DNA of 32,000 bases from Acaryochloris marina MBIC11017 (GTDB taxonomy: Bacteria > Cyanobacteriota > Cyanobacteriia > Thermosynechococcales > Thermosynechococcaceae), in the NCBI RefSeq assembly GCF_000018105.1, contig NC_009925.1, forward strand, positions 6,030,001-6,062,000, in the 5' to 3' direction. The notes beneath the pieces are model-generated. The model worked only from the letters and a program-made list of their open reading frames with translations. It had not been told where the DNA came from and did not search any database. Positions 10,841 to 25,253 of the stretch are shown one piece after another; positions within the stretch are counted from its first letter, which is position 1; the number at the start of each line of letters is the position of its first letter. The position numbers were made by a program, and so were the translations under genes.

Positions 10841-12132
10841 GAGTTTTTATTGGAGGCGAATTTAAAAGGCGAAAGTCGTAAGGTTGCAGCGGGTGATCGC
10901 GAGTCTGCTGCTGACAAGGTCACCCAAAACTGTTCCTCAAACTCCCCGACCACTTGTGCATAAATACAAGTGTCTTCTTCCGTCGGGGTAAGCATCGGAT
11001 CTGCTAGCACTTTTTCGGTATCACTAACCAGAAGCTTCACTGTCTGTTCGAGTGTCGTTTCTGGTTTAGCACCGACAACAACAAGTAACGTCCATTCTGT
11101 GTTGGGTAAATTTGGTTCCACTGGCCAGACTATTGAATATAAACGCAGTTGAGAAAGTCCCAAGGTTAGATCCCGGTACGCCCCCCCCGCAGAAGTAGGA
11201 ATATCCATACCCTGTCGTTGTAACTCCCCAATCACCGCAACAATCACTGGATCCGTCGAGCGCAGGGCGGTTGCCAAGGGGGGCATCAGTATCCAACTGA
11301 ACTGCCGAGCGGCATCATCTAATCTATGTTGAAGCCATGCCCCAACATTTATCGGTTGCGCTGGTTCAGTGACTGGAACAATTGAATCCTGGGCTGGCTT
11401 ATGCTGCCAATACTCACTACACCACCTTAGCCAATCCGCGTTCCTCAAAATGGAGGCAGCTTCCTGCCAAGTAAACAATTGCCAAAATTCGGCACCTGAA
11501 CGAACTTGATCGAGCTTCTCTGTTAAGAGAGATTCAGTAAGAGCCGTAGATGTATGAGATTGTAGTTCTGGTTGTGGGACAGTCTCTAAACAACGCAACC
11601 ACAGGAGTAACTCATTGGCAGATGCAAACGCTTGGGGTGAAATCCTATAGGTCCAGTCCGGTTGTGGGATTAAAGACGGTAAAAGTTGAACAGCAACATC
11701 CCATCTCAATCCCCCCTGAATCTCTACCTGTGCTAGTTCTTCTAGGACGTCCACTTTCACAAAGCAGTGAGGAACAAAGCCTGCAATCTCTAGGGCGGCT
11801 CTGGGGATTGCCACCTCAGCATCAGCTAAGCCAGAGACTAACACTGCGACTCGCCATTCCCCAACCAATAGATAGCTGGCATCGCAAAAGGGTAGGTACG
11901 TGGTACCTAAAAAGGGACGAACCCTTACCCCTAGATAGCTCCGCTCCGCCAACCACGATTCCAAAGCTGTGAGCGCTAATCCATGGAGGTAACCTCGCCA
12001 TTGCCAGGCTTCTGGCAGCGATTCACTTTGCTGAATTGCTTCTGCAATCTGGGTCTCAGACAGTGAGATCGCCGTAATGGGCAGGGCGGTGAAGTCTGCT
12101 TTCAGGTCTGGGGGAGGGGATACGTCAGTCAT
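10837..12132 (-). CDS. Hypothetical cytoplasmic protein, DUF1822-like
   Basis: 431-aa ORF with no signal peptide. The N-terminal third (LPITAISLSETQIAEAIQQ...YLHGLALTALESWL...YLLVGEWRVAVLV...VAIPRAALE...HCFVKVDVLEELAQVEIQGGL) resembles remembered DUF1822 sequences. Its position between a sigma-like gene and a CHASE2 gene matches the usual DUF1822 context. Its stop overlaps the next start (ATGA, 10837-10840). Confidence 0.55.
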   Translation of the reverse strand: MTDVSPPPDLKADFTALPITAISLSETQIAEAIQQSESLPEAWQWRGYLHGLALTALESWLAERSYLGVRVRPFLGTTYLPFCDASYLLVGEWRVAVLVSGLADAEVAIPRAALEIAGFVPHCFVKVDVLEELAQVEIQGGLRWDVAVQLLPSLIPQPDWTYRISPQAFASANELLLWLRCLETVPQPELQSHTSTALTESLLTEKLDQVRSGAEFWQLFTWQEAASILRNADWLRWCSEYWQHKPAQDSIVPVTEPAQPINVGAWLQHRLDDAARQFSWILMPPLATALRSTDPVIVAVIGELQRQGMDIPTSAGGAYRDLTLGLSQLRLYSIVWPVEPNLPNTEWTLLVVVGAKPETTLEQTVKLLVSDTEKVLADPMLTPTEEDTCIYAQVVGEFEEQFWVTLSAADSRSPAATLRLSPFKFASNKNS

Positions 12133-12135
12133 GAT

Positions 12136-13542
12136 TCAGAGCGTCCTATCCAGATAATCACAGAGTCGCTGGGCATATAGGCTGCTCACGGGCCGATTCC
12201 GAGGGACACTGGCTTCGGCGGCAGCGGTCTGCATCACCCCATCGACTTGTTCAGTCAGGAGGGTATCGAGCTGTTTATTTAATGCGTGTAATCGATGAGG
12301 ATCGGCGAATGGTTGAGCGACTTGCCAAACCCGCTCCCGCAGGTCGAGTAAGATTTGATGGCGAATATCTGCTCTTAGGTCTTTGAGCTGAAGTAATCGG
12401 GTGACCTGATATTGGGCCTTCAGATCAATGCGAGGTGCAATATCGCTCATCGCCAACCCTTGGCAATGAAACAAAAATAAAGCTGTTAGATACTGATGAG
12501 ATTTATTAGATTTTTGAGTTTGGAATCTCTTGAGCTTATCTGCCAAAACGCCCTCTATGGTCTTGTCTAAACTCTGTTGGAATTGCTGTCGATACTGCTG
12601 TAGAAATTGTGTTTGAGAGTCTGGATCTTCATCTGAAGGGGGGGCAGCGATCTGCATTACCTGTCCAGTGGTCGGATGCAGCTGGTCCAGGGATTGGGTT
12701 GGTGCTGGCCCACCTCGGGCATAAATTCGATATTCACGCAGCAATCTAGCTAAATTCTGTAATTGACTTAGAACCATCTGGGGTTCAACTGGGTCAGAGT
12801 TGCTGATTCCGAATTGGGCAATTTGCTGTAGCTGAGAAGGAGAGGGTTCCCGACATCGACCTGTTTTTCCCGCTTGGCGCTGACGAACGCGATCGCGTCG
12901 ATATACAGAATGATATCTGTTCAGTAAGTTCACGTTGTGTTCGATTTCATGAGATGTGAGGGAGTGAAACTCTCCTAATATTCGGGATATCTGTTGAGGA
13001 GTAGTGTCGTTAAGAATTGCCCAATCACTTATGAGATAAACGCCATGTTCTAGCAGAAAAGTGTTGAGGCTATGGTCTCGGCGAACTAACTGAGCTGTCC
13101 AAGTTGATAGGCCTCCTTGTTTGATATCGAAAGAAGATAATATCTTTTCAATTAGAGACTGATATGAACTTTGGATTTGAGGTTGATTCTGGAGGTTTAA
13201 GGGGCCATGATCAAGCACAAAAGAGTAGAGATCCTTAGTCGTAAAGCCATGATCTTGGCCAAACTGAGCACAAAGTTGTCCACAAACTTGAGCAATCACA
13301 TTAGAAATAAAGCACTTCAAACATAGTCCTGCCAGCTCCTGATCACTGGTTTTTGCTTCTTCAGGATGAAGCCAAAGTTGAAATAAACGTTGCTGTAACT
13401 GATCGTCAGAAAGGGATGACTGATCCTCTGCTATTGACAACTGTGTTCGCAAAAATTGTTTAGCCGGCATTACGACTTCCACTTTTTTTTGACCCGTTGC
13501 GTCAATCCTCACCCATTGCCAGTAACGAAAGGCATTTCCCAC
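12136..13542 (-). CDS. Divergent sigma-70-family-like transcription factor
   Basis: The ORF starts at GTG 13542, with an in-frame alternative ATG at 13470 (MPAKQFL...). A C-terminal segment YLTALFLFHCQGLAMSDIAPRIDLKAQYQVTRLL looks like a sigma region 4.2 HTH. The N-terminal helix-rich part (LAGLCLKCFISNVIAQVCGQL...DLYSFVL...SDWAILND) resembles the sigma-70-family proteins annotated next to DUF1822 genes in cyanobacteria. The stop lies 3 nt before the DUF1822-like start. Confidence 0.55.
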   Translation of the reverse strand: MGNAFRYWQWVRIDATGQKKVEVVMPAKQFLRTQLSIAEDQSSLSDDQLQQRLFQLWLHPEEAKTSDQELAGLCLKCFISNVIAQVCGQLCAQFGQDHGFTTKDLYSFVLDHGPLNLQNQPQIQSSYQSLIEKILSSFDIKQGGLSTWTAQLVRRDHSLNTFLLEHGVYLISDWAILNDTTPQQISRILGEFHSLTSHEIEHNVNLLNRYHSVYRRDRVRQRQAGKTGRCREPSPSQLQQIAQFGISNSDPVEPQMVLSQLQNLARLLREYRIYARGGPAPTQSLDQLHPTTGQVMQIAAPPSDEDPDSQTQFLQQYRQQFQQSLDKTIEGVLADKLKRFQTQKSNKSHQYLTALFLFHCQGLAMSDIAPRIDLKAQYQVTRLLQLKDLRADIRHQILLDLRERVWQVAQPFADPHRLHALNKQLDTLLTEQVDGVMQTAAAEASVPRNRPVSSLYAQRLCDYLDRTL

Positions 13543-13617
13543 AATACGTTTAACTCTTCATCTCTGCTGTCCCTCATTATTTCATCCACTTTTAGCAGCG
13601 TTTAAGAAGCTATAGAA

Positions 13618-13657
13618 ACTTTATGGAATGATAAATTGTTTCTGTATCTTGACTTAC
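13618..13657 (-). promoter_or_regulatory. NtcA-type (class II) promoter candidate: GTA-N8-TAC, 20 nt, TAN3T
   Basis: GTATCTTGACTTAC lies at 13644-13657. On the minus strand, 20 nt downstream, is TAAAGT (13623-13618). This is ~75 nt upstream of GTG 13542. Direct repeats GGATAAAA at 13659-13666 and 13677-13684 flank it on the upstream side. Confidence 0.4.
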
Positions 13658-13837
13658 TGGATAAAAAAATCTCTAAGGATAAAATCAGATACTCAACGTC
13701 GTTAAGTGTAATTTGGCTGCTGAGAATAACTATCTCTGTCCGATTCCAACTTATGCGACTCTATCTGCAGAAGCTGGCTGAAGAATAGTTGATTATACAA
13801 CTTGATAGTTGTTACCGAGGCGTATACCAGGATTTTC

Positions 13838-16800
13838 TTAAAAGATAACCTGGGGTTGTTTAGCCTGAGCAAAGTACCGTTCGAAAGCAGACTTTAACTC
13901 ATCCACACGAATGGGTTTACTGACATAGTCATGCATTCCTGCTGCCATACACATTTCCCGGTCACCCTGCATGGCATTGGCAGTTAACGCAATAATATAG
14001 GGCTGCTCCTCTTCCTGCCACTGTTCTGTGATGTGCCTGGCTGCTGTTAGGCCATCCATCTCTGGCATTTGCACGTCCATTAACACGACATCGTAGGATT
14101 GGCGATGCAGAGCTTCTAGGACTTCTTCGCCATTGTTGGCTACATCTGCTCGGTAACCCAACTGTTTGAGAATCAGTAGCGCCACTTTTTGATTGACGAC
14201 AATATCTTCAGCTAACAGGATTTGCAGGGATGGATCACCCTGTTCTTCGGTATTAACTGGAGAAGGTACAGTGGGTTTAACTTGAACGCGCTGACCTTCA
14301 AAAATTTCTGCTAAGGCGTCGTACAAGTAGGATTGCTGGATGGGCTTATTGAGAATGGCAGAAAATTGAATTTCTTGCTTATGTTTGATAATTTCGTCTT
14401 GTCCCAAGGAACTGAGCATGACGAGGGGAAGGTGTTTCCTCTGATCGAGTTGGCGGATATGTCTCGCCAATTCGACACCATCCATTTCTGGCATTTGCAT
14501 ATCCAAAATCGCCAGATCAAACTTGGAATCACTTTCAAGGAGAGCTAGGGCTTCGGCTCCCCCGCTCACCGTTTGAATCCCCATGCCCCAGGTTTGGGCT
14601 TGTAGGGTTAAAATTCTGCGATTTGTGGGATTGTCATCCACCACCAGGAGCTGCTTCCCATCGAGGAGTTGTTGAGATTGATCGAGGGTATTTTCTCCCT
14701 CAGGGGCCACTGGCACCGCAATGGTAAAGAAAAAGCTTGACCCGACCCCGGCTTTGCTCTCGACCCAGATTCTGCCTCCCATCATTTGAGAAAGAGAGCG
14801 ACAGATGGCTAATCCTAGGCCGGTGCCACCATATTTTTTGGTGGTTGAGGCATCAACTTGGCTAAAAGATTTGAACAAACGATCCATGCGATCGGCCGGA
14901 ATGCCAATGCCTGAGTCTCTGACTTCAAATTGAATCAAACGGCGTTGATTTTGAATATCGGTAAAATTTTTCCGCTGGGAGGTTGTCTCAGGTTGGGTGA
15001 TGTCCGTATCGGTGATGTCCTGCACATAGATTACGACTTCCCCTTGCTCGGTAAACTTGACGCCGTTGGTGAGGAGGTTCACTAGAATTTGGCGGAGACG
15101 AGTGACATCCCCCACGATGTGATTGGGGGTCGAGGGATCGAATAAGTAAGCGAGTTCGAGCTGTTTATCAATGGCTCTTGGCGCAACTAGACGCAGGGAT
15201 TCTTCAATGCAGGCCCGTAGGCTAAAGGGTTGTTCTTCAAATTCCAACTTACCCGCTTCAATCTTGGAGAAGTCGAGGATGTCGTTGATCAGGGTTAACA
15301 GCGCATCCCCACTGCTTCGAATGGTTTCAACGAAATCCCGTTGTTGATTATCTAAAGTGGTATTTAGCAACAGTCCCGTCATACCAATGACCGCATTCAT
15401 GGGGGTGCGAATTTCGTGGCTCATAGTGGCTAGAAATTCACTCTTAGCAACGTTGGCTGCATCAGCATCTTTTCGAGCTTGTTTCAGGGCTGTATTGTTC
15501 TGAGTCAGTGTTTGGCGCTGCTGTTGTTCCTGTTCAAGGAGATGACCATGGGCTAGGGCGATGCCGACTTGTCCAGCAACAGCTTCGATGAGTTCAATTT
15601 CGGCTTGGGTCCAGTCCCGTTTGCGATCGCATTGCTGTAGCACTATCACCCCATTGGCTTTGCGCTGATAGGAGGTACGAATGGCTAGCATGGACTGAAT
15701 TTGGCCTTGTTCACAAATGTCTGAAACAGGTTGAATTAAGGGATCCCCCAGGGCATTGTCTGAGGCAACGGCCCGATCATGACGGAGTACCTTGCGGGCA
15801 TGGGGATTATTTTCCAACTGGATGTCGGTGCCGAGCATAGACGGCACCTCTCCAGTCAGGTATTCTGCAACGATGGGCAGATGGGGGTTAGGGTCGGTAA
15901 CGTAGGTATGGAGATGGCATCGACTGACCTGAAAGGTTTTGCCAATTTCTTGAACCGTGGCTTTAAAAATTTGTTGACGGTCTAAGTTTTTACGAATCTT
16001 ACGGGTGATTTTCTCTACCAATTCAGCCCGACGCATTTGCTGTTTGAGGGCTTCGGTGGCCGCTTTGGTTTCTGTAATATTGCGAATAGAGCCTGCCATA
16101 CGGGTGGGCTTGCCTTCAATGTCCCAGATGGCCTGGCCACGGCCGGAAACCCATAGGTAATAGCCTGCTTTCGATTTCAGGCGATACTCTACTTCATAGG
16201 GGACCAAATGTTCTAAGTGATGTTTGAGGGCCAAGGAGACCATCTCTTGATCATCGGGACAAATATGGGCTTTCCAGGTTTCTAACGTGCAAGGCAATTC
16301 TCCATCTTCATATCCCAACAATTGACCAAACCGGGGGGACAGATAAAAGGCTTTGTTGACGATATTCCAATCCCAGAGGACGTCACCGGATCCCTTGACC
16401 GCCAATTGAAACCGTTCCTCGCTTTCCTTTAAGGCGGCATCTGCTTGTTGGCGCTCAATAATTTGTTGTTGTAGCTGAGTTCGTTGGGCTTGCTCCTGTT
16501 CCAACAGTTCTGCTTGGGCTAGGGCAATACCGATTTGGTCTGCAACCGTTTCTAATAGGTCGATTTCTGCTGTGGACCAGGATCGAAAACAGTCTGTATA
16601 GGCCTCGGGTTGAGCCAGGTAATCTTCACGAGACAATCTGCGATCGCAATGCTGAAGGATAATTGCGCCATTGGGTTTTCCTTGATAGGACGTACGCACC
16701 CCTAACATTGACTTCAAGGTCACGGGCTGAGGATCCGAAATCAGGGTTTCTAGTAACCGATCGGTGTAGATATTCGGGGTTGTAACGGCTTGATCTTGGG

Positions 16801-18586
16801 TGAGAATCTGCTGGGCATGGGGATTATCTGCCACAGGCATCTCGATGCCCAGCATTGAATGAATGCCAGGGGCGGTATATTCAGCCACTACGGGAATATA
16901 GTCGCCATCTTCCGTATAGCTGTGTAAGTGGCAACGACTTACTTGAAAGACTTGACCCATTTGGTCTGCGGCAGTCTGAAAAATTATCTGAGTATCCAGG
17001 CTTTGACGAATGGCCTGGGTGATTTTTTCTAAAAGCTGTGCTCGCTTTACTTGCTGAGCTAGAGCAATCTCTGCTTCTTGCCGCTCTTCAATTTCTTGTC
17101 TTAACTTGTGGGTTTTGGCTTCAACCTCGGCTTCCAGAGTTCGCGAGTAATCCGCTTTAAAGTGGGCAAGCTGCTGCAATTCCTGATTGGCCTCGACCAG
17201 TTTTGCTGTCCGCGCTTCCACCTGCTGCTCCAGGGTTGCCTTCGTATCTAACAATTCCTGGTTAGACTTTTCTAAAGCATCAATGACTTGGTTATAGCGA
17301 GTCGCAATACGACCGACCTCAGTAAAGGGTTCAACGGGAGCTCGCAAGCTTAAGTCCAGATCTTCAGCCTGCTGATCCATCACCTCAAACAAATCCAAGA
17401 CCTCAGATTTGGCATGGTGCTCGGCAAAGTTAAGCCCCATCTGCTCATCTTCGGCCAAGACCCGCAAAGGCAACAGTCGATTCACCCCTTTTAACAAGAG
17501 CCAACTTAAACCGAATGCCCAAGCACCACAGACAGCAATCCCAAGAAGCTGAATGCCAATTTGGCTCCCCCGATCAAGACCAGTCTCAAGCAAATCAGTA
17601 CGACCGTATAGTCCAACGGCCAAGGTGCCCCATATCCCACCTCCTAGATGTACTGGAACAGCATCAACTGCATCATCAATGTGTAGTTTCGTCATCCAAT
17701 ATTTGACAACCATCATCACGGCTCCCCCGATGGCTCCGATGATGATGGCTAGGGGTGGGTTGATGACATGGCAACTGGCGGTCACGGACACTAGCCCGGC
17801 CAGGGATCCATTGATCATGAGCTCAATCTTGGGAATCTTGGTCCGCCACCACCCAAGAGCCCCCGCTGTTAGCGTTCCGGCAGCACCCCCGAGAACGGTA
17901 TTCAGTAAAATAATGGGAACACGATCGCTGAATTCCAGACCACTCCCACCATTAAAGCCGAGCCACCCCATCCACAGCAGTAACGCACCTAAGACGGATA
18001 GGGGCAAGCTGGATCCCAAAATCTCCTTGGGGGCATCTGTTTTGGAAAATCTCCCTTGTCTTGGACCAATAATCAAAATAGCGGCCAGGGCAACCCATCC
18101 ACCAACACTGTGGACGACCGTTGAACCGGCAAAATCAACAAACCCCATGCGCCCCAACCAGCCATTCATTTGCCCCGCTTCGATTCCATTCCAAATCCAA
18201 TGCCCAAAGACGGGATAGACCACACTAGCCATAAAGGCTGTGATCACTAGATACCCTCCAAACTTGGTACGTTCCGCCACAGCACCTGAAACGATGGTGG
18301 CTGCAGTGCTGCAAAACATGGTTTGAAACACGATAAACGCGGCTAGGGCGGAGTCAGTTCCAGGAGAAGCTAGAAATTGATCGGTGCCAATGACAGTGTT
18401 GATGGATGCTCCAAACATCAAGCCATAGCCAAAAAACCAGAAAATAATGGTAGATAGGCTAAAGTCTGCAAAATTTTTAATGGCAACGTTGATATTATTT
18501 TTGGAACGGGTGAGTCCAGACTCCAGGCACATAAACCCGGGTTGCATGACAAAGACCAGTGCTGAACAGACAAGTAGCCATAACAT
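13838..18586 (-). CDS. Ammonium-transporter (Amt) domain fused to a GAF-PAS-GAF hybrid sensor histidine kinase with two receiver domains
   Basis: The N-terminal ~400 aa is an Amt/MEP channel: MQPGFMCLESGLTRSKN, FVDFAGSTVVHSVGGW, LLWMGWLGFNGGSG, DAVPVHLGGGIWGTL. Then come a HAMP-like helix/coiled coil, GAF (FQVSRCHLHSY), PAS (ERFQLAVKGSGDVLWDWN) and a second GAF (FQVSRCHLHTY). The kinase core has HisKA ([14 protein letters not shown], His codon 15416-15418) and HATPase_c (DSGIGIP...GGTGLGLAI). The receivers are REC1 (LLVVDDNPTNRR...[12 protein letters not shown]) and REC2 (ILLAEDIVVNQK...[12 protein letters not shown]...VSKP). An in-frame stop lies 4 codons upstream of the ATG. Confidence 0.92.
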   Translation of the reverse strand: MLWLLVCSALVFVMQPGFMCLESGLTRSKNNINVAIKNFADFSLSTIIFWFFGYGLMFGASINTVIGTDQFLASPGTDSALAAFIVFQTMFCSTAATIVSGAVAERTKFGGYLVITAFMASVVYPVFGHWIWNGIEAGQMNGWLGRMGFVDFAGSTVVHSVGGWVALAAILIIGPRQGRFSKTDAPKEILGSSLPLSVLGALLLWMGWLGFNGGSGLEFSDRVPIILLNTVLGGAAGTLTAGALGWWRTKIPKIELMINGSLAGLVSVTASCHVINPPLAIIIGAIGGAVMMVVKYWMTKLHIDDAVDAVPVHLGGGIWGTLAVGLYGRTDLLETGLDRGSQIGIQLLGIAVCGAWAFGLSWLLLKGVNRLLPLRVLAEDEQMGLNFAEHHAKSEVLDLFEVMDQQAEDLDLSLRAPVEPFTEVGRIATRYNQVIDALEKSNQELLDTKATLEQQVEARTAKLVEANQELQQLAHFKADYSRTLEAEVEAKTHKLRQEIEERQEAEIALAQQVKRAQLLEKITQAIRQSLDTQIIFQTAADQMGQVFQVSRCHLHSYTEDGDYIPVVAEYTAPGIHSMLGIEMPVADNPHAQQILTQDQAVTTPNIYTDRLLETLISDPQPVTLKSMLGVRTSYQGKPNGAIILQHCDRRLSREDYLAQPEAYTDCFRSWSTAEIDLLETVADQIGIALAQAELLEQEQAQRTQLQQQIIERQQADAALKESEERFQLAVKGSGDVLWDWNIVNKAFYLSPRFGQLLGYEDGELPCTLETWKAHICPDDQEMVSLALKHHLEHLVPYEVEYRLKSKAGYYLWVSGRGQAIWDIEGKPTRMAGSIRNITETKAATEALKQQMRRAELVEKITRKIRKNLDRQQIFKATVQEIGKTFQVSRCHLHTYVTDPNPHLPIVAEYLTGEVPSMLGTDIQLENNPHARKVLRHDRAVASDNALGDPLIQPVSDICEQGQIQSMLAIRTSYQRKANGVIVLQQCDRKRDWTQAEIELIEAVAGQVGIALAHGHLLEQEQQQRQTLTQNNTALKQARKDADAANVAKSEFLATMSHEIRTPMNAVIGMTGLLLNTTLDNQQRDFVETIRSSGDALLTLINDILDFSKIEAGKLEFEEQPFSLRACIEESLRLVAPRAIDKQLELAYLFDPSTPNHIVGDVTRLRQILVNLLTNGVKFTEQGEVVIYVQDITDTDITQPETTSQRKNFTDIQNQRRLIQFEVRDSGIGIPADRMDRLFKSFSQVDASTTKKYGGTGLGLAICRSLSQMMGGRIWVESKAGVGSSFFFTIAVPVAPEGENTLDQSQQLLDGKQLLVVDDNPTNRRILTLQAQTWGMGIQTVSGGAEALALLESDSKFDLAILDMQMPEMDGVELARHIRQLDQRKHLPLVMLSSLGQDEIIKHKQEIQFSAILNKPIQQSYLYDALAEIFEGQRVQVKPTVPSPVNTEEQGDPSLQILLAEDIVVNQKVALLILKQLGYRADVANNGEEVLEALHRQSYDVVLMDVQMPEMDGLTAARHITEQWQEEEQPYIIALTANAMQGDREMCMAAGMHDYVSKPIRVDELKSAFERYFAQAKQPQVIF

Positions 18587-18631
18587 AAGCGTTACCTAGT
18601 TAAAACCGGGGTTCCCCCTAATAAGACATTC

Positions 18632-21600
18632 CTAAACACTGCAGGCTGCCATTTCTGCCTCAAAGGCAATGCGAACCGTCTCGTAGGCCTGAGAAATCTG
18701 AGAGACAACGTCTGCAGATCCTTCTGTAGAACCTGAACGACCCAGAGCTTCAGCTTCGGAACAGAGATTAGCCAGTTGTTTAGCACCCAGGTTGGCACTG
18801 GCCGATTTTAGGGCATGGGCTGCATCACTTAACCCATCAGGATCGGCATCTTTAACGGCCTGATGCATCTTTTCGACGCGACCCGGTGCATCTTCCAGAT
18901 AAGTATTTAACAAATCAGCAATGAGTAAAGATGCATGCTCCCCAGCGAGCTGACGGAAACTTTCCAAGGCTGCGGGGTCAATAATGCTTGGATCCATTGA
19001 GGTTTCGGCCATCGTTGATTGTTCCATGATTACAGTGGTTTCTTGAGAAGAATGAGGTGCTTGAGTCTCGGGGCTGGGAGGGATGGAGGAGCTTGGAGGA
19101 ATAGTGACGGACAGGTTTTCTTCTAACTGGGGAATCGGCTCTGCCCCCTGGACTGGTTGGGAGGCTGTACTCCCGACTAAAACAGCAACAGGTTGAGGGC
19201 TTTCCTGGGACTGTGGAGAATTGGTTTGTGTGGGTTTATTGAGGCTGACGGGCTGGGATTGTAAAACAGGAATAGGAGGAGTGGTTTCCTCAATTTCAGG
19301 CTCTTCCATCGGTTGACAACGGCTGAGGACGTCTCTGAGTTCATGGATACGGACGGGTTTGGTGATGTAAGCGTCCATCCCTGCATCCAGACACATTTCT
19401 CGATCCCCCTGCATCGCATTGGCGGTCATCGCAATAATGTGAGGACGATCTTCGGGAGACCAGCGTTGGCAAACTTCTCGGGTTGCGGTGAGACCATCCA
19501 TCTCAGGCATTTGTACATCCATCAGGACAACATCATAGGCTTGCCGTTCTAAGGCTTCAATGACTTCCAGGCCGTTGTTTGCAACGTCTGCTCGGTACCC
19601 CAATTGCTTTAAGGTCAACAGGGCCACTTTTTGGTTGACCACCATATCCTCGGCTAAGAGAATGCGCAAGGGATGTTGATCGCCTAAGTTAGTGGGGTTT
19701 TCTTGAACGTCAGGGGCCTGTTCCACTTTAATGAGAGGGTTACCCAACACTTGAGCCAGGACGCTTTGAAGTTGGGCTTGCTGAACAGGCTTGTTTAAAA
19801 TGGCCGAAAAATTAATATCCCCAGCCCGAGCGCGGATGTCATCTTGCCCTAGGGAACTTAAGACCACTAGGGGCAATGTTTTACCGTTGGGCTCTGCCCG
19901 AATTTTCTCGGCTAAGGTTACCCCGTCCATCTCCGGCATTTGCATATCCAGGACTGCAAGATCAAAATTCACCCCTCGTTGTAGCCACTCTAGGGCTTTG
20001 ATGCCTGATTTAACTGCACAGGTTAGCATTCCCCAAGATTGGGCTTGTAGGGATAAGATCTCTCGATTGGTGGCATTGTCATCCACAATTAAGAGTTGTT
20101 TGCCCGCTAATTGGACATCTGATGCTGCTTTGGGGCTGACATAGTTTGGAATTTCAGACGCTGTAATGGTGAAGGAAAAGGTTGACCCAACACTCACCTC
20201 GCTACTGACCCATATTTTGCCGCCCATTAGTTCGCTGAGCTGCTTGCTAATGGCTAAGCCAAGGCCAGTGCCCCCGAACTTACGGGTGGTGGAAGCATCA
20301 ACTTGAGAAAAAGATTTAAACAAACGCTCTAACTTATCTGGTGGAATGCCAATGCCCGTGTCTTTGACATCAAATTGGATCTCATAGGGGGTGGCTTCGG
20401 CGATCACCTCCAGATCTGATTCAGCATCTAAGTCCTTAGATTCAATGGGTTTTGAAGATACATAGACAACGACTTCTCCTTCCCCTGTGAATTTAAGTGC
20501 ATTGTTGAGTAGATTGACTAAAACCTGGCGTAAGCGAGTAATGTCTCCCAGAATGGCGGTGGGTGTGGGGGGATTAATCAGATAAGCCAGCTCCAGATTT
20601 TTCTCAGAAGCCTTGGAGGCTACAATCAGCAAGGCTTCTTCAATGCAGGTCCTGATTTCAAAGGGTTGCTGTTCGAGATCTAGCTTCCCTGCCTCAATTT
20701 TGGAGAAATCTAAAATATCGTTGATCAGTGTGAGTAAGGCATCGCCACTACTGCGGATGGTCTCAACAAAATCCTGTTGCTGGGCTTCTAAAGGAGTATT
20801 TAGAAGTAGTCCAGTCATACCAATCACTGCATTCATAGGGGTGCGAATTTCATGGCTCATATTCGCTAGGAATTGGCTTTTAGCCTGATTAGCGGCCTCT
20901 GCTTCATGTTTTGCGGCTTGGAGTTCAGAAACCATCCCTTCTAATTCTTGCTGCCGCGTCTTCAACAGAGAAATCATGCTGTCTTTGAGTTGGCCAATGT
21001 TCAGGGCTGCCCGTTGGAGAACGATATTAAATGTATTGATGACTTCAGCTAATTCATGGTTGCGATCGCAATCATGATTACTCAACTCCACCTGGCTGGG
21101 ATCGCCGGACATGGCAACCTCAGCTTTCCGTAACTCATCTAAAAGCTGATTGAGGGGACGGATAACTGTGCGACTCACAGCCCGCAGGGTAATGGCTGTA
21201 AACGTCATCCAAATCAGTAGGATTAAGCCGCCTAACTGGAGGGTATTGGTTAGGGCTGCCGACTGGATCTCCTGACTGTCCAGCCTTAAAGACAATTGAT
21301 AACCTGTATTCTCTTGCTGGGGCCAAGTAATATCGTAAGTCGATGACGTATTATTCCAAACCCTGGTTATATCAAGGTTAGAAAGATCTGTCGCTGTAGG
21401 AGGATTGCCAAACGTGGCCCGTTTACTCCCGTTCTGAAACAGGGTGCCACCCCTAACTTTAGACCCCTGCATAAGGGTCTTAGCTGTATCCACCAGCTGG
21501 TCTACAGAAGAATTACTGTTAGCAAAACCAACCAACGGGGTAATAACGGTTAGACTTTCAGCTTCCAGTTGCCCCAGTTTTGCGTCTCGAATCCTGAAAT

Positions 21601-21748
21601 AGGACGGTACTAAAATAAAGACCTCGGCAATGAGGCAGCTTCCTAACCCCATCATGCCAATCTGACGACCCAGTGGAGAACGAAGGGGGGGTAAACATTG
21701 TTTCAGACCATCAATCAGGCTAAACTTTGATGAATTCAGCGGCTGCAT
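18632..21748 (-). CDS. Hybrid sensor histidine kinase (2 TM + periplasmic loop, HAMP, HisKA-HATPase, REC, REC, HPt)
   Basis: TM1 is [20 protein letters not shown] and TM2 is [17 protein letters not shown], with a ~130-aa loop between them, followed by a HAMP-like segment. The kinase core has His[16 protein letters not shown] (His codon 20852-20854) and HATPase_c (DTGIGIP...GGTGLGLAI). Two receivers each carry DMQMPEMDG / [10 protein letters not shown] Pro/Ser-rich linker follows. The C-terminal HPt motif is [18 protein letters not shown]. Confidence 0.92.
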
Positions 21749-21759
21749 TTTTTTGCTTG

Positions 21760-22045
21760 ATAGATGTTAGTGGACTACTAAAAAATATTCTTTTTCTAAT
21801 AGTTATTGATGTAAATATTTTCTGAAATAGATGTTGATTTCTAGAAAGAGTTTCTTCGGTAAGAGAAAGCTTCTCCATTACTGCATCATTAGCATGCCCT
21901 GATCACTCCTAGACCGAACAAATTAGCCAGAGTTATCGGTCGTTAAATGAGATCTACTCAGAGTTCTGCCAGCCATCTTAGCCTTGTGAATTCTAGGGAT
22001 AAACAATCATGATTAGGGTGGTTTTATCGATCCTGATATAGATGT
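21760..22045 (+). promoter_or_regulatory. Three same-orientation copies of the 8-mer ATAGATGT in the divergent kinase / phosphatase intergenic region
   Basis: Exact copies lie at 21760-21767, 21827-21834 and 22038-22045. A partial copy TAGATG lies at 22060-22065. Confidence 0.35.
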
Positions 22046-22058
22046 AATGTTTTGACAG

Positions 22059-22072
22059 GTAGATGGGCTTAC
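22059..22072. promoter_or_regulatory. NtcA-box-like palindrome GTAGATGGGCTTAC (GTA-N8-TAC)
   Basis: Perfect half-sites, 121 nt upstream of the REC-PP2C start and 311 nt upstream of the kinase operon start. I could not find a properly spaced TAN3T -10 box on either strand. Confidence 0.25.
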
Positions 22073-22192
22073 TAGGAGATAAATATTTGGATATTGGTGG
22101 CTAATTAAGCTCCCGAAAATCTGGCAATACAGTATCAAAAGCCAGGATTTACCCCGATCAATTGTTCTTCCCCATTCTCTAGTTTTGGTGAG

Positions 22193-24298
22193 ATGAGTCA
22201 GACCTTGGAAAATCGTACCCCGCTTATTTTAGTTGTCGATGACGATCGATCAACTCGAATTATTCTTCGCCTGATTTTGGAGCAAGACGGGTGTGAGGTA
22301 GTTGATGTTGAAAATGGTCAGCAGTGCCTGAATGCTTATCTCACCCGCAAGCCAGATATGGTGTTGTTGGATGCCAAAATGCCTGTCATGGACGGATTTA
22401 CCTGCTGTGCTGAATTGCAAAAGCTGCCCTTAGGTGCGTCCACCCCTATTTTGATGATTGCAGGTCTAGATGATCAAGCCTCAGTGGATAAAGCCTTTGC
22501 CGCAGGAGCAATGGATTATGTGACAAAACCCATCCATCCCCCTATCCTGCGACGTCGATTACGTCATTTATTAGAAGCAAGTTGGGCTGAGCAAGCAGTT
22601 CGGGATAGCGAAGCGCGTTATCGATCGGTGGTGGATCACTTAAAAGAAGTGATATTCCAAATCAATCAAGAAGGGAATTTAGCTTTTCTCAATCCAGTGT
22701 GGTCAGAATTAACGGGCTTTGTTAGGGAAGAGGCCATTAACCATCGATTGGCAGAATATGTTCATCCGGGTGATCGACAACAGTTCAATCAGTACATTGA
22801 TCAACTGTTTCATAGAGAACGATCGGAATGTCGTTTTGATGTTCGATTTCTCCACCAAGCCGGTAGCTTCGGCTGGATGGAAGTCTATGCTTGTGCCATT
22901 CCTGGTCCAGATGGCAAAATCGTCGGAATTTCTGGTTCCCTGGCGGACGTAACCGAACGCAAATATCAAGATCAACGGTTGTCCGTTGAGCGAGCCACTA
23001 CTCGGGTGTTGGCTGAAGTGGCAACCTTAAGCGAGGCTGTCCCCAATCTATTGCAAGCGATCAGCAAAAGTTTGGGATGGGAATACGGTGAGCTGTGGTT
23101 GATGGATGAGACAAACAACACCTTGAAATGTGTGGAAAGTTGGTTTGAGCTAGAAGAGAAGATGGGCTCTTTCCAGATTGCATCGAGTTCTGCTAATTTT
23201 GCCCTGGCTTCAGGACTGATTCAACGCATCTGGACCCATGATGGTCCCCTATGGCTAACAGATAATGCCATTCAAGATATTCATGCCAATTCGTTTCCCC
23301 AGGCCGGTATGCAAACCGCCTTTAGCTTTCCGATCTTAGAAGGCTATAACCGTTTGGGGGTAATGGTTTTTAGCAAGCGTGAACATCAAGCGATGGACGC
23401 TAGTCTTTTAAAGATTATGGGGTCTATTGGAACCCAGCTTGGTGAGTTTATTATGCGTAAACGAGCGGAGGAAGAAGTCCAACATCAGCATGCGAAATTG
23501 CAATCTGAGCTGGATCAGGCGGCAGGCTATGTCCGTTCTTTAATTCCCCCACCCATGACAGGTCCTGTTTCGATTCAGCATCAGTTTATCCCGTCCAATC
23601 AATTGGGGGGAGATGTTTTTGATTACTATTGGCTGGACTCGGATCATCTCGCCATTTACTTACTAGATGTGGCAGGCCATGGTATTCGTTCTACTTTGTT
23701 GTCTGTTTCCGTGCTCAACGTGGTGCGATCGCAATCCTTGCTGGATACAGATTTCTATCAGCCCAGTTCGGTTTTGGATGGCCTCAATGAAGTCTTCCAA
23801 ATGAATGAGCAAGGGGATGACTATTTCACAATTTGGTATGGGGTCTATAACTGTAAGACTCAAAAACTCAAGTACGCTAGTGGTGGTCATCCAGCGGTAC
23901 TTTTGGCGTCTGCCCAAAACCCAATTCAGCCTTTAGAGGTGCGCAGTATTCCCATTGGCATGATGACAGGGTTTCCCTACGATCAGTTTGAATGTGATAT
24001 CCAAACCGGTAGTGCCCTCTACCTATTCAGTGATGGGGTCTATGAAATTGTGCAACCAAATGGCGAAGTATGGACTTTTGATGGATTTATGACCGTAGTC
24101 TCTGAATATCAACGACGGCAGTTTGATACCCTCGATCCACTTTTCCAGCAGATTCAGCATATTGCTGGCAATAAGAGCTTTGAAGACGACTACTCTCTGA
24201 TGAAAATCTCCTTTGACTCGGTTCAGCCTAAGCAAACTTTGCCACCAATACCTTATGCGGCCCAGGCTGCTACCCCGATAGCTGCTAATCCCTTCTAA
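22193..24298 (+). CDS. Response regulator with REC-PAS-GAF-PP2C (SpoIIE/RsbU-type) phosphatase output
   Basis: REC: LILVVDDDRSTRIIL...MVLLDAKMPVMDGF...DYVTKP. PAS: YRSVVDHLKEVIFQINQEGNLAFLNPVWSELTGF. A GAF-like region follows. PPM/SpoIIE motifs: LGGDVFDYYWLD, AIYLLDVAGHGIRSTLLS, ASGGHPAVLL, LYLFSDGVYE, FEDDYSLMKISF. Confidence 0.9.
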   Translation: MSQTLENRTPLILVVDDDRSTRIILRLILEQDGCEVVDVENGQQCLNAYLTRKPDMVLLDAKMPVMDGFTCCAELQKLPLGASTPILMIAGLDDQASVDKAFAAGAMDYVTKPIHPPILRRRLRHLLEASWAEQAVRDSEARYRSVVDHLKEVIFQINQEGNLAFLNPVWSELTGFVREEAINHRLAEYVHPGDRQQFNQYIDQLFHRERSECRFDVRFLHQAGSFGWMEVYACAIPGPDGKIVGISGSLADVTERKYQDQRLSVERATTRVLAEVATLSEAVPNLLQAISKSLGWEYGELWLMDETNNTLKCVESWFELEEKMGSFQIASSSANFALASGLIQRIWTHDGPLWLTDNAIQDIHANSFPQAGMQTAFSFPILEGYNRLGVMVFSKREHQAMDASLLKIMGSIGTQLGEFIMRKRAEEEVQHQHAKLQSELDQAAGYVRSLIPPPMTGPVSIQHQFIPSNQLGGDVFDYYWLDSDHLAIYLLDVAGHGIRSTLLSVSVLNVVRSQSLLDTDFYQPSSVLDGLNEVFQMNEQGDDYFTIWYGVYNCKTQKLKYASGGHPAVLLASAQNPIQPLEVRSIPIGMMTGFPYDQFECDIQTGSALYLFSDGVYEIVQPNGEVWTFDGFMTVVSEYQRRQFDTLDPLFQQIQHIAGNKSFEDDYSLMKISFDSVQPKQTLPPIPYAAQAATPIAANPF

Positions 24299-24461
24299 AA
24301 AGTTAAAAAAAAACTGATTGTTACAGAGTTTAGCTAACAGAAATTGACTTCTTGCTTAATTCAGCTACCGATATGGAAGTGGACAAAAATTTAAGTCAGA
24401 TTGCAGCATGAATTGAGTAAATAACACATTATGAAAAGAATGTTGCAAGGAGTCTAGTCTG

Positions 24462-24497
24462 TTTTTCAGAATATAGCTTGTATTTGATTCTGAAAAA
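24462..24497. repeat. Perfect 11-bp inverted repeat TTTTTCAGAAT-N14-ATTCTGAAAAA
   Basis: The arms at 24462-24472 and 24487-24497 are exact reverse complements. It lies 130 nt upstream of the V4R gene start and 164 nt downstream of the PP2C gene stop. There is no U-tract after the stem on either strand. Confidence 0.4.
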
Positions 24498-24626: not shown

Positions 24627-25253
24627 ATGATAAGTACCCAGCTCAATGAAACCTCTTTATCTCTAAATGGTGAAGGCACGATTGATCAGCTTCCATCCGT
24701 TTTGGCGATGCAACGGTTTCATGCTTTGAACGATCAAAGGAATGGGAGCTTGACCCAGAAGATGCAAATATCTTCTACTTCCTTAAAGATGCTTAATCGG
24801 ATTGTCGAGAAATTTCCAGCCCAGGAAATCTATCAAATCGGAAAGGAATTAGGAGAAAGAGAATTTAGAGCCTTTTATCTCGCCTTTGCACCAGTCAATC
24901 CTTCTTTGCTCGATTTGGGCTGGAAGACAATTCTAGAGCGGTGGTGGGTTTATGCCTATTTATCTGAATACGGTAACGTGAATCTTGAGTTAAGCCAAGA
25001 ACAAAATGATTACTTCTTTGTAACATTTACCAATACTAAGATCCATCGTACCAAAGCGACGAAAAACAAGCCGGTGTGCCCACTGATTGCAGGAGTCCTA
25101 GCAGGTTTTTTTAGCAGCTTGTCGGGTTATGAATATGAAGCCATTGAAACTGAATGCCATGAGAAGGGGCATCAAAATTGTACGTTTATTCTAGGGAATA
25201 GTGGCTTGGTTAATTCCGAGACATTTTGGCAAGCAATCCATGATATCCATTAA
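24627..25253 (+). CDS. V4R (4-vinyl-reductase-like) domain protein
   Basis: The C-terminal segment KPVCPLIAGVLAGFFSSLSGYEYEAIETECHEKGHQNCTFILG fits the V4R Cys pattern (C-x3-G-x2-x-G ... E-x-x-C-x3-G-x3-C-x-F). Confidence 0.65.
   Translation: MISTQLNETSLSLNGEGTIDQLPSVLAMQRFHALNDQRNGSLTQKMQISSTSLKMLNRIVEKFPAQEIYQIGKELGEREFRAFYLAFAPVNPSLLDLGWKTILERWWVYAYLSEYGNVNLELSQEQNDYFFVTFTNTKIHRTKATKNKPVCPLIAGVLAGFFSSLSGYEYEAIETECHEKGHQNCTFILGNSGLVNSETFWQAIHDIH

What the first reader, a model, noticed from the sequence alone, without database searches (positions are those of the whole stretch)
13838..18586. 1582-aa fusion of an Amt ammonium channel to a GAF-PAS-GAF hybrid histidine kinase
Seen: one uninterrupted ORF joins a complete-looking Amt domain to a coiled coil, GAF, PAS, GAF, HisKA/HATPase and two receivers. 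The Amt domain has the conserved DFAGS-VVH motif with the first pore His. It also has the GWLGFNGGS vestibule motif and the second pore His in VPVHLGGG. Established: Amt/MEP/Rh proteins are ammonium channels. An Amt-histidine-kinase fusion from the anammox bacterium Candidatus Kuenenia stuttgartiensis (Ks-Amt5) has been characterised as an ammonium sensor rather than a bulk transporter. Inference: this protein is a transceptor that reports external or periplasmic ammonium into a phosphorelay. The added GAF/PAS modules would integrate intracellular ligands. This architecture is much larger than the characterised example. Retention of both pore histidines leaves open whether it still conducts.
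Basis: partly seen in the sequence, partly recalled or inferred. Interest (0 to 1): 0.7.

Follow-up and report, generated by a model that had tools for sequence, protein, structure and literature searches.

The report
Ammonium-sensing Amt receptor fused to kinase
This is a real 1582-residue cyanobacterial (Acaryochloris) protein in which an ammonium-channel-like membrane domain, carrying every sequence hallmark of the known "ammonium receptor" subclass, is fused to a multi-sensor hybrid histidine kinase; it is a new, larger member of an already described kind rather than a new kind of system.

Summary
One uninterrupted minus-strand ORF (13838..18586, 1582 aa) encodes Amt, a conserved juxtamembrane helix-loop-helix, a ~105-residue helix, GAF, PAS, GAF, HisKA, HATPase_c and two receivers.

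The Amt domain is closest to the two characterised ammonium receptors, Sd-Amt1 (48% identity; model TM 0.95) and Ks-Amt5 (40%). It carries their full published N1/N2 sensing-site signature, the Tyr-to-Glu side path and the Asn exit constriction. It also keeps the Trp/Ser vestibule, Phe gate and twin-His.

The fusion is conserved without indels at the junction in eight ortholog clusters (79-99% identity), all Acaryochloris-type. Large Amt-hybrid-kinase fusions are common: at least 120 90%-identity clusters of 983-1852 aa in several phyla. This exact domain order, however, forms a single 50%-identity cluster.

An 11.4-kb block is conserved in five independent contexts: V4R gene, REC-PAS-GAF-PP2C regulator, HPt-bearing kinase, Amt-kinase. 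This predicts a relay from ammonium through His, Asp and HPt to a PP2C response regulator.

The verdict is a new member of the known ammonium-receptor (AmR) class, of moderate interest. Whether ammonium regulates the kinase, and whether the pore conducts, remain untested.

The parts
13838..18586 (-). Whole gene: Amt-receptor / multi-sensor hybrid histidine kinase, 1582 aa
   Evidence: Single ORF. Pfam domains. Orthologs at 79-99% identity and the same length.
17411..18586 (-). Amt sensor domain, residues 1-392. N1/N2 site: Q15, E22, N38, D41, F42, T97, S100. Side path: F18. Exit constriction: N259. Pore: W132, S215, F91, F211, D151, H159, H313.
   Evidence: Pfam E 2.7e-118. Passes NCBIfam TIGR00836. 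Signature regex match. Residue table against Sd-Amt1, Ks-Amt5, Af-Amt1 and AmtB. AF2 model pLDDT above 90, TM 0.95 and rmsd 1.4-1.6 A to Sd-Amt1.
17264..17410 (-). Conserved juxtamembrane transducer module, residues ~393-441; conservation begins at G384. HAMP-like helix(395-409)-connector-helix with motif SLRAPVEPFTEVGRIATRYNQVIDALE.
   Evidence: Invariant or near-invariant columns in 53 diverse sensor Amts. PFTxVG motif in 225 of 374 fetched relatives at a fixed distance of ~405 aa from the signature Gln. Nearly all top-150 representative hits align through residue ~441. Helix-loop-helix in the AF2 model. Pfam HAMP not detected. hhalign to bona fide HAMP is weak.
17003..17263 (-). Long signalling helix / probable coiled coil, residues 442-528; continuous with the second juxtamembrane helix from residue 423.
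   Evidence: AF2 predicts a single helix at 423-528. Heptad a/d hydrophobic occupancy 0.63 against 0.40. 81-100% conserved among orthologs.
16472..17002 (-). GAF1, residues ~529-705. Orthologous to the single GAF of the Amt-GAF-HK relatives.
   Evidence: Pfam GAF E 3.2e-10 when scanned alone. 55-59% identical to the GAF of P0129, P0132 and P0134.
16037..16441 (-). PAS domain, residues ~716-850 (Pfam PAS_3 at 748-833).
   Evidence: PDB 3mr0 at E 7e-37.
15527..16036 (-). GAF2, residues ~851-1020. Internal duplicate of GAF1 (86/173 identical). Phytochrome-family GAF without the bilin-binding Cys-His.
   Evidence: Hits CBCR GAF structures, but C958 is replaced by F or G in orthologs.
14717..15448 (-). 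Kinase core: HisKA 1047-1112 (H1057) and HATPase_c 1159-1290 (N-box 1170, G1 1224, G2 1253).
13883..14656 (-). Two receiver domains: REC1 ~1311-1430 (D1362) and REC2 1456-1568 (D1504).
18632..21748 (-). Upstream gene, 45 bp away. 2-TM sensor hybrid kinase HisKA-HATPase-REC-REC-HPt, 1038 aa. Kinase/REC core is paralogous to that of the Amt kinase. HPt at residues 945-1026 (H978), window 18671-18916.
   Evidence: Pfam. 60% identity over 560 aa to the Amt-kinase core. Two hydrophobic segments. HPt retained as a 180-aa ORF where the kinase part is deleted.
22193..24298 (+). Divergently transcribed response regulator REC(D60)-PAS-GAF-SpoIIE/PP2C, 701 aa. Predicted end point of the relay.
   Evidence: Pfam. 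96% and 83% identical in orthologous loci and always adjacent. PP2C metal-binding motifs visible in the alignment.
24627..25253 (+). V4R-domain protein, 208 aa. Lies at the edge of the collinear block; membership in the system is uncertain.
   Evidence: Pfam V4R. Present in A. marina (92% identity) but absent from loci L003-L005. The collinear block with A. marina is window 13848-25253.

Best explanation
**What it is.** The gene encodes a member of the ammonium-receptor (AmR, sensor Amt-like) class.

**Sensing step (inferred by homology).**
- A trimeric Amt module admits periplasmic NH4+ through the normal vestibule, Phe gate and twin-His.
- Below the histidines, E22 and F18 replace the wall tyrosine of transporters, and N259 narrows the cytoplasmic exit.
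- The ion is therefore diverted into the internal N1/N2 pocket formed by Q15, E22, N38, D41, T97 and S100.
- Occupancy shifts the C-terminal end of TM11.

**Transmission step (anatomy shown, mechanism inferred).**
- The shift passes through a strongly conserved HAMP-like juxtamembrane helix-loop-helix and a ~105-residue helix.
- It continues through a GAF-PAS-GAF array, which may add cytoplasmic inputs.
- It ends at a HisKA/HATPase_c core.

**Phosphorelay (inferred from conserved gene order).**
- Phosphate goes from H1057 to a receiver Asp in cis (D1362 or D1504).
- It then passes to the HPt domain (H978) at the C-terminus of the adjacent paralogous kinase.
- It ends at D60 of the divergently encoded REC-PAS-GAF-PP2C response regulator.
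- That regulator's Ser/Thr phosphatase activity is the output.

**Shown versus inferred.** Shown: the ORF, the domains, the signature residues, conservation and synteny. Inferred: ammonium binding without bulk transport, the sign of regulation, the relay route and the phosphatase target.
For: **Amt domain matches the receptors.**
- Closest solved relatives are Sd-Amt1 (E 2e-119) and Ks-Amt5 (E 8.5e-89), against Af-Amt1 at 1.9e-58 and AmtB at ~1e-33.
- The AF2 model matches Sd-Amt1 ON/OFF states at TM 0.95 and rmsd 1.4-1.6 A.
- The published N1/N2 signature is matched.
- The residue-by-residue table reproduces published numbering. It shows receptor-type residues at all eight N1/N2 and side-path positions, and at N259, where AmtB and Af-Amt1 differ (definitions).
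- These residues are invariant or at least 90% conserved in 53 diverse fused relatives.

**Kinase and relay.**
- Catalytic His/Asp and ATP-binding boxes are intact.
- The fusion and linker are conserved without gaps in orthologs.
- The RR, HPt gene and Amt kinase are adjacent in five independent contexts.
- In one lineage the upstream kinase is internally deleted, yet its HPt persists as an ORF.
- Other large Amt kinases carry an HPt in cis after two RECs.

**Literature.** Experiments show NH4+-dependent output without transport for Ks-Amt5 and Sd-Amt1.
Against: - There are no functional data for this protein.
- Plant AMT1 transporters also carry the N1/N2 signature and do transport. The signature therefore does not prove loss of conduction.
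- Ks-Amt5 has Thr rather than Asn at the exit position, so N259 is not a universal receptor feature.
- The juxtamembrane module is not recognised as HAMP by Pfam or by hhalign (probability 9%).
- The relay route rests on gene order only. The two kinases are 60% identical in their REC domains, so the HPt might serve mainly its own kinase.
- More distant Amt-GAF-HK relatives do not share the neighbourhood.
- It is unresolved how a trimeric sensor drives a dimeric HisKA kinase. This symmetry break is acknowledged in the literature.
Confidence: 0.75

Rival explanations
1. True transceptor: the Amt domain still conducts ammonium at physiologically relevant rates and signals at the same time. It would be both an uptake route and a sensor.
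For: The vestibule Trp/Ser, Phe gate, D151 and twin-His are all intact. Cluster-2 proteins with the N1/N2 signature include proven transporters, the plant AMT1s, and the authors suggest dual function for them. They state that N269 in Sd-Amt1 'may not fully prevent transport'.
Against: The closest relatives are Sd-Amt1 and Ks-Amt5, for which SSM electrophysiology indicated binding rather than transport. The exit Asn and the Tyr-to-Glu change are present. No PII/GlnK gene lies nearby among the ORFs scanned.
Confidence: 0.2
2. The Amt domain is only a membrane anchor or oligomerisation scaffold. The kinase would be controlled by cytoplasmic ligands of the GAF-PAS-GAF array, not by ammonium.
For: Three cytoplasmic sensory domains lie between the membrane and the kinase. 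Each GAF carries invariant Cys and His residues that could bind a ligand or sense redox state.
Against: The N1/N2 ligands and pore residues are invariant across 53 fused relatives with unrelated outputs. Such conservation is not expected for a mere anchor. The juxtamembrane coupling module is conserved as strongly as the pore.
Confidence: 0.04
3. GAF2 is a cyanobacteriochrome-type bilin photoreceptor, so the protein would combine light and ammonium inputs.
For: GAF2 hits solved CBCR/phytochrome GAF structures at E 1e-14 to 1e-7, including SyB-Cph1, NpR6012g4, AnPixJg2 and RcaE. One alignment places C958 on the canonical Cys. The host genus is rich in CBCRs (my own knowledge).
Against: - There is no Cys-His dyad; the sequence is CE.
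- The DIP-type Asp is Asn in GAF2.
- About 20 pocket residues are missing.
- Other alignments put the canonical Cys on Val or Pro.
- C958 is Phe or Gly in orthologs at 79-91% identity.
- GAF1 has no Cys at this position.
Confidence: 0.01
4. Artefactual fusion: a sequencing or assembly error joined a separate amt gene to a kinase gene.
For: None found.
Against: The same 1561-1587-aa ORF occurs in eight 90%-identity clusters from NCBI, JGI, ENA and Logan assemblies, including a closed chromosome. There are no indels at the junction.
Confidence: 0

Closest known systems
Sd-Amt1, ammonium receptor of Shewanella denitrificans (PDB 8QJ3/8QJ4/8QPF; PMC11152129)
   Same: - 47.9% identity over the Amt domain, the best PDB hit by sequence and by fold.
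- Identical residues at all N1/N2, side-path (F, E) and exit (Asn) positions.
- A helical juxtamembrane transducer follows TM11, described as HAMP in Sd-Amt1. It aligns weakly, at E~1, to residues 391-452.
   Different: - The output in Sd-Amt1 is a GGDEF diguanylate cyclase in a 644-aa protein.
- Here the output is a 1582-aa GAF-PAS-GAF-HisKA-HATPase-REC-REC kinase, with the HPt and a PP2C regulator encoded alongside.
Ks-Amt5, ammonium sensor histidine kinase of Ca. Kuenenia stuttgartiensis (PDB 6EU6; PMC5764959)
   Same: - An Amt module fused to a histidine kinase, with the N1/N2 site conserved and 39.9% identity.
- NH4+-dependent histidine phosphorylation and loss of transport were shown for Ks-Amt5.
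   Different: - Ks-Amt5 is 679 aa with only DHp+CA. The related Scalindua proteins carry HisKA_2/HWE-type Pfam families.
- It has no GAF/PAS, no receivers, and a reported lack of a HAMP-type transducer.
- Its response regulator is still unidentified.
- The exit residue is Thr, not Asn.
Uncharacterised large Amt-PAS/GAF-hybrid kinases in public data (e.g. P0158, 1636 aa; P0135, 1587 aa; P0202 from Ca. Nitronereus thalassa; P0196 from Anatilimnocola)
   Same: Amt, PAS/GAF sensors, HisKA-HATPase and two RECs, in proteins of comparable size.
   Different: - They carry the HPt in cis and have a different sensor order: PAS-GAF-PAS in P0158, GAF then PAS in P0135.
- They align to the query only over Amt plus the juxtamembrane module, and identity to the full query is below 50%.
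Assimilatory Amt transporters (E. coli AmtB, A. fulgidus Amt-1)
   Same: 11-TM Amt fold, Trp/Ser vestibule, Phe gate and twin-His.
   Different: - They have Tyr and Ser (Af Y27/S251, Ec Y32/S263) where this protein has E22 and N259.
- None of the N1/N2 ligands is present.
- They have no C-terminal signalling domains, and they are usually linked to glnK. No such gene is present here.
BarA/TorS/ArcB-type hybrid kinases with a His-Asp-His-Asp phosphorelay
   Same: The kinase core and receivers score highest against TorS, BarA and ArcB models, all below their cut-offs. An HPt step is predicted.
   Different: The input is an Amt receptor rather than a periplasmic/PAS sensor. There are two receivers. 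The HPt sits on the neighbouring paralogous kinase rather than in cis.

Membership tests
AmR / sensor Amt-like ammonium receptors (Ks-Amt5, Sd-Amt1 class) | Amt/MEP/Rh fold (11 TMH) | tested here: met
   Pfam PF00909 at E 2.7e-118. AF2 model pLDDT above 90 over residues 1-380, with TM 0.95 to 8QJ4 and 0.92 to 6EU6.
AmR / sensor Amt-like ammonium receptors (Ks-Amt5, Sd-Amt1 class) | N1/N2 signature QX6EX15NX2D[F/T]X54-60TX2[S/T] (PMC11152129) | tested here: met
   Regex match at residues 15-100: Q15, E22, N38, D41, F42, T97, S100. The columns align with Sd-Amt1 Q22/E29/N45/D48/F49/T104/S107.
AmR / sensor Amt-like ammonium receptors (Ks-Amt5, Sd-Amt1 class) | Selectivity path retained up to the twin-His (Trp/Ser vestibule, Phe gate, His pair) | tested here: met
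   W132, S215, F91, F211, H159, H313 and D151.
AmR / sensor Amt-like ammonium receptors (Ks-Amt5, Sd-Amt1 class) | Side path opened (Phe + Glu replacing the wall Tyr) and narrowed cytoplasmic exit | tested here: met
   F18 and E22 against Af Y27 and Ec Y32. N259 equals Sd N269, against Af S251 and Ec S263. Ks-Amt5 has Thr at the exit position.
AmR / sensor Amt-like ammonium receptors (Ks-Amt5, Sd-Amt1 class) | Cytoplasmic transducer fused C-terminally to TM11 | tested here: met
   1190 residues of signalling domains follow residue 392. The junction is conserved in orthologs.
AmR / sensor Amt-like ammonium receptors (Ks-Amt5, Sd-Amt1 class) | NH4+ binding without net transport; NH4+-dependent output | not testable with these tools
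   Requires SSM electrophysiology and kinase assays, as in PMC5764959 and PMC11152129.
Hybrid histidine kinase (HisKA family) phosphorelay | H-box His and N/G1/G2 ATP-binding boxes | tested here: met
   H1057 in SHEIRTP; N-box at 1170, G1 at 1224, G2 at 1253. Pfam HisKA and HATPase_c.
Hybrid histidine kinase (HisKA family) phosphorelay | Receiver with phospho-acceptor Asp, acidic pair, Thr/Ser and Lys | tested here: met
   REC1: DD1317-1318, D1362, SS (PLVMLSS), K1414. REC2: ED1460-1461, D1504, T (ALTA), K1557. Read from the sequence.
Hybrid histidine kinase (HisKA family) phosphorelay | HPt domain to complete His-Asp-His-Asp | tested here: inconclusive
   No HPt in the protein itself. An HPt (H978) lies on the gene 45 bp upstream and is conserved there in all five contexts. 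Actual phosphotransfer was not tested.
HAMP domain (PF00672) | Profile match and helix-connector-helix of about 50 residues after the last TM | tested here: inconclusive
   - No Pfam HAMP hit, even at E up to 10.
- hhalign against bona fide HAMP of relatives gives probability 9% over 17 columns.
- The AF2 model nevertheless shows helix 395-409, loop 410-422 and a helix from 423.
- The motif TEVGRIATRYNQV resembles the DELGxLAxxFNxM motif found in the Pfam-recognised HAMP regions of relatives (hhalign).
Cyanobacteriochrome / phytochrome bilin-binding GAF | Conserved chromophore-binding Cys-His in the GAF helix | tested here: not met
   GAF2 has C958-E. C958 is F or G in orthologs. GAF1 has no Cys there.
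Assimilatory Amt transporter (AmtB / Amt-1 type) | Tyr and Ser lining an open cytoplasmic exit; no N1/N2 ligands; frequent glnK linkage | tested here: not met
   E22 and N259 in place of Tyr and Ser. All N1/N2 ligands are present. No PII gene among the neighbouring ORFs scanned.

The most novel reading that the evidence does not exclude
The conserved 11.4-kb block would be a complete, dual-input ammonium phosphorelay. The Amt receptor kinase and a paralogous 2-TM sensor kinase would converge on one HPt and control a REC-PAS-GAF-PP2C phosphatase.

This would be the first defined downstream pathway for any Amt-receptor kinase, since the regulator of Ks-Amt5 is still unknown. It would also be a route by which a cyanobacterium senses external ammonium directly, alongside the intracellular 2-oxoglutarate/PII/NtcA network.
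Probability: 0.4. Interest if true: 0.55.

Novelty: new member of a known kind. Interest (0 to 1): 0.35.

Why it matters
**Why the class matters.** Only two Amt-derived ammonium receptors have been characterised, neither from a phototroph, and the partner regulator of the only kinase-type example is unknown. A major review of cyanobacterial C/N control describes sensing through intracellular 2-oxoglutarate. It never mentions an external ammonium sensor.

**What this locus offers.**
- A receptor-type Amt domain in a culturable genus.
- A conserved set of candidate partners, the HPt and the REC-PP2C regulator. This makes the question 'what lies downstream of an Amt receptor kinase' directly testable.

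**A by-product.** A ~58-residue juxtamembrane module follows TM11 in sensor Amts with PP2C, cyclase, PAS, HisKA and HWE-type outputs from several phyla. This marks it as the probable common coupling element.

**Limits.** None of this changes the category. The class, its signature and the expectation of many more fused variants are already published.

Tried and rejected
1. **Bilin photoreceptor reading of GAF2.** It was raised by CBCR hits. I rejected it because the Cys is not conserved and the Cys-His dyad is absent.
2. **NtcA control.** A GTAN8TAC box at 22059 lies in the divergent intergenic region. The window holds 4 matches against 3.45 expected. The box is not conserved in A. marina or L003. 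No evidence for NtcA control.
3. **Promoter/terminator scan of 13300-22300.** Counts were at shuffle level and uninformative.
4. **HAMP assignment by profile.** Pfam was negative, hhalign weak and the PDB sequence search of the linker marginal. I kept only 'HAMP-like', from the model topology.
5. **'Rosetta-stone' link to Amt-PP2C fusions.** The many cyanobacterial Amt-(HAMP)-PP2C fusions might link to the neighbouring PP2C regulator. Both are SpoIIE-family, but they are only 20% identical, and the fusions have unrelated neighbourhoods. This is a weak parallel only.
6. **Synteny in more distant relatives.** The neighbourhood of the more distant Amt-GAF-HK relative P0129 is not shared.
7. **Amt-domain-only homolog search.** It missed the 79-99% orthologs later found with the full-length query, because of the candidate cap. 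It is not a census.
8. **Genome-collection scans.** The first scan, with a single sequence, found nothing. The profile scan found one species representative with the full junction plus GAF1 and 152 with only the juxtamembrane module.
9. **RNA genes.** Rfam and tRNA scans of the window found nothing.
10. **Literature.** Searches for cyanobacterial or Acaryochloris Amt kinases found no specific paper.
Full report
**Observation**

The window has a single uninterrupted ORF on the minus strand at 13838..18586, with an ATG start and 1582 aa. Pfam finds these domains:

| Domain | Residues | E-value |
|---|---|---|
| Ammonium_transp | 2-392 | 2.7e-118 |
| GAF x2 | second copy 869-1011 | 1.1e-26 |
| PAS_3 | 748-833 | 3.4e-20 |
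| HisKA | 1047-1112 | 5.2e-22 |
| HATPase_c | 1159-1290 | 4.5e-26 |
| Response_reg x2 | second copy 1456-1568 | 3e-47 |

It shows moderate heptad periodicity.
- The coordinates and domain order are exactly as reported. The strand, which the finding did not state, is minus.

**The fusion is real and under selection**

- A full-length search found a 99%-identical protein, a 91%-identical Acaryochloris marina protein (1587 aa, on a 5.88-Mb chromosome, named 'ammonium transporter' by NCBI), and six more clusters down to 79% identity. All are 1561-1587 aa with the same Pfam set.
- Aligned, they show no gaps at the Amt/linker/GAF junction. The linker is as conserved as the Amt domain, at 81-100%.
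- The window is collinear with A. marina CP064923 at 87% nucleotide identity. The collinear stretch is exactly window 13848-25253. The source is therefore an Acaryochloris species distinct from that strain.

**What kind of Amt domain**

- By sequence, the closest solved proteins are the receptor Sd-Amt1 (E 2e-119) and the sensor Ks-Amt5 (E 8.5e-89). They are well ahead of Af-Amt1 (1.9e-58) and E. coli AmtB (~1e-33).
- An AlphaFold2 model of residues 1-560 has mean pLDDT 88, above 90 across the membrane domain. It superposes on Sd-Amt1 ON/OFF states at TM 0.95 and rmsd 1.4-1.6 A, and on Ks-Amt5 at TM 0.92.
- The paper defining this class gives a diagnostic signature for the internal N1/N2 ammonium-binding pocket: QX6EX15NX2D[F/T]X54-60TX2[S/T] (PMC11152129).
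- The protein matches that signature exactly at residues 15-100.

A five-way alignment reproduces the published residue numbers of all four references:

| Role | This protein | Sd-Amt1 | AmtB / Af-Amt1 |
|---|---|---|---|
| N1/N2 pocket and side path | Q15, F18, E22, N38, D41, F42, T97, S100 | Q22, F25, E29, N45, D48, F49, T104, S107 | hydrophobic or small residues; a wall Tyr at the E22 position |
| Exit constriction | N259 | N269 | Ser in both transporters |
| Vestibule, Phe gate, Asp, twin-His | W132, S215, F91, F211, D151, H159, H313 | retained | retained |

- Both characterised receptors also retain the vestibule, gate and twin-His.
The N1/N2, side-path and exit residues are, and they are receptor-type.
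- One caveat applies. The same paper places plant AMT1 transporters in the signature-bearing cluster and proposes dual function for them. Sequence alone therefore cannot exclude some conduction.

**The coupling element**

- Immediately after TM11 lies a ~58-residue module: G384-LNFAEHHAKSEVLDLFEVMDQQAEDLDLSLRAPVEPFTEVGRIATRYNQVIDALE-441.
- Many of its columns are invariant or at least 90% conserved across 53 sensor Amts. Those proteins have PP2C, adenylate-cyclase, PAS, HisKA or HWE-type kinase outputs, including anammox Scalindua proteins.
- The core PFTxVG motif occurs in 225 of 374 fetched relatives, at a fixed ~405-residue distance from the signature Gln.
- In an exhaustive search of 1.84 billion representatives, nearly all of the top 150 hits align from residue 1 to about 441-500. 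All of them are longer than 520 aa.
- The model shows helix 395-409, a 13-residue connector, then a helix from 423. This is a HAMP-like topology, and the equivalent segment of Sd-Amt1 was described as HAMP.
- However, Pfam HAMP is not detected and a profile comparison with bona fide HAMP domains of relatives is weak. I call the module HAMP-like, not HAMP.

**Cytoplasmic sensors**

- GAF1 is orthologous to the single GAF of a neighbouring family of Amt-GAF-HisKA-REC proteins of 1218-1281 aa, at 55-59% identity. GAF2 is an internal duplicate, with 86 of 173 positions identical.
- GAF2 hits cyanobacteriochrome and phytochrome GAF structures. It lacks the Cys-His dyad, and its only candidate Cys (C958) is Phe or Gly in orthologs. 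Bilin binding is rejected.
- What the GAF and PAS domains bind is unknown.

**Kinase and relay**

- H1057, the N/G1/G2 boxes, and both receiver aspartates (D1362, D1504) with their accessory residues are intact.
- The protein has no HPt.
- The gene 45 bp upstream (18632..21748) encodes a 2-TM HisKA-HATPase-REC-REC-HPt kinase. Its kinase/REC core is 60% identical to that of the Amt kinase.
- The divergent gene (22193..24298) encodes a REC-PAS-GAF-SpoIIE/PP2C response regulator.
- This trio is adjacent in all five independent contexts examined: the window, A. marina, a second Acaryochloris MAG, an ENA assembly and JGI metagenomes. The regulator is the best-conserved member, at 96% and 83% identity.
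- In the JGI lineage the upstream kinase has an internal deletion. This left an N-terminal remnant and a 180-aa ORF that starts inside REC2 ('MMAMTANALQGD...') and retains the HPt at 69% identity. The HPt is kept where its own kinase is lost, which fits its serving the Amt kinase.
- Other large Amt kinases carry the HPt in cis after two receivers.
- I therefore infer a relay: H1057 to a REC Asp, then to HPt H978, then to RR D60, then PP2C output. This rests on gene order and domain logic, not on experiment.
- More distant relatives do not share the neighbourhood. The regulator's PP2C domain is only 20% identical to the PP2C of the many Amt-PP2C fusions.

**How unusual is it**

- All 120 best hits of the full-length search combine Amt, HisKA, HATPase_c and REC. 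They are 983-1852 aa and come from cyanobacteria, Planctomycetota, Nitrospirota and Deltaproteobacteria. About 22 besides the orthologs also have both PAS and GAF families.
- Two that I scanned are Amt-PAS-GAF-PAS-HisKA-HATPase-RECx2-HPt (P0158, 1636 aa) and a protein of 1587 aa with the same domain families (P0135), GAF preceding PAS.
- Size and complexity are therefore not exceptional.
- The exact order, Amt, helix, GAF, PAS, GAF, is narrow. Only one 50%-identity representative aligns over residues 1-1040.
- Only one of 185,579 species-representative genomes, an Acaryochloris MAG, matches across the junction plus GAF1. A further 152 loci from at least seven phyla match only the juxtamembrane module.
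- I found no paper on cyanobacterial Amt kinases. [quoted passage not shown]

**Verdict**

- It is a new member of the known ammonium-receptor class, with a lineage-specific sensor array and a conserved, testable set of relay partners.
- It is not a new kind of system, so interest is moderate.
- Three questions remain open: whether ammonium regulates the kinase and in which direction, whether the pore still conducts, and what the PP2C regulator dephosphorylates.

Noticed in passing
window 13848-25253 versus flanks; 25468-26157 (+); 29050-29933 and 30468-31501 (-): Collinearity with A. marina CP064923 (87% nt identity) covers only the four-gene block and stops right at the Amt-kinase stop codon. 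One flank carries an IS1-family transposase. Further on are two IS630-type elements, each split into HTH and DDE_3 ORFs. The block sits in a rearranged, IS-rich region.
   Followed up: partly
window 7621-13542 (-), compared with L001 15046-16798, L003 15056-16848 and L011 13992-15775: In most orthologous loci the Amt kinase is followed by HupE/UreJ (a Ni/Co permease family linked to urease) and a CobW GTPase; one locus (L010) shows only CobW. In the window these are replaced by a 468-aa protein with no Pfam or NCBIfam hit, a DUF1822 protein, a CHAT-CHASE2 protein and a 251-aa ORF.
   Followed up: partly
window 863-3469 (+), 4676-7516 (+), 8369-10840 (-), 10837-12132 (-): A cluster holds two CHAT-domain proteins (TPR-CHAT and CHAT-CHASE2), DUF1822 and a TPS-domain (two-partner-secretion type) protein. 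It may be a separate conserved cyanobacterial module.
   Followed up: no
window residues C552/C647/C666 (GAF1) and C890/C986 (GAF2) of the 13838-18586 ORF: Each GAF has an invariant Cys pair in the motifs 'SRCHLH' and 'LQ[HQ]CDR'. GAF1 also has a 17-residue insert with a further invariant Cys. These could form a redox or metal site; no test was made.
   Followed up: no
L003 8850-9921 (also L004, L005): In this lineage the upstream hybrid kinase has an internal deletion of roughly 750 residues. It leaves a short out-of-frame N-terminal remnant and a 180-aa ORF that begins inside REC2 and keeps the HPt domain.
   Followed up: yes
P0024 (A. marina, 604 aa), P0063 (A. thomasi, 527 aa) and about 30 other proteins of 450-600 aa: Many cyanobacterial proteins annotated as 'ammonium transporter' carry the N1/N2 signature and the juxtamembrane module but have no recognisable output domain. 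They may be receptors that signal through partners.
   Followed up: no
window 21749-22192 (alignment A1): A short segment, ATATTTA..CCTAGTAAGCCCA, is conserved in the divergent intergenic region across loci that are otherwise poorly alignable. It may be a shared regulatory element for the operon pair.
   Followed up: no
The word-indexed homolog search with the Amt domain alone did not return the 79-99% identical full-length orthologs that the full-length query found. Its hit lists should not be read as complete.
   Followed up: yes
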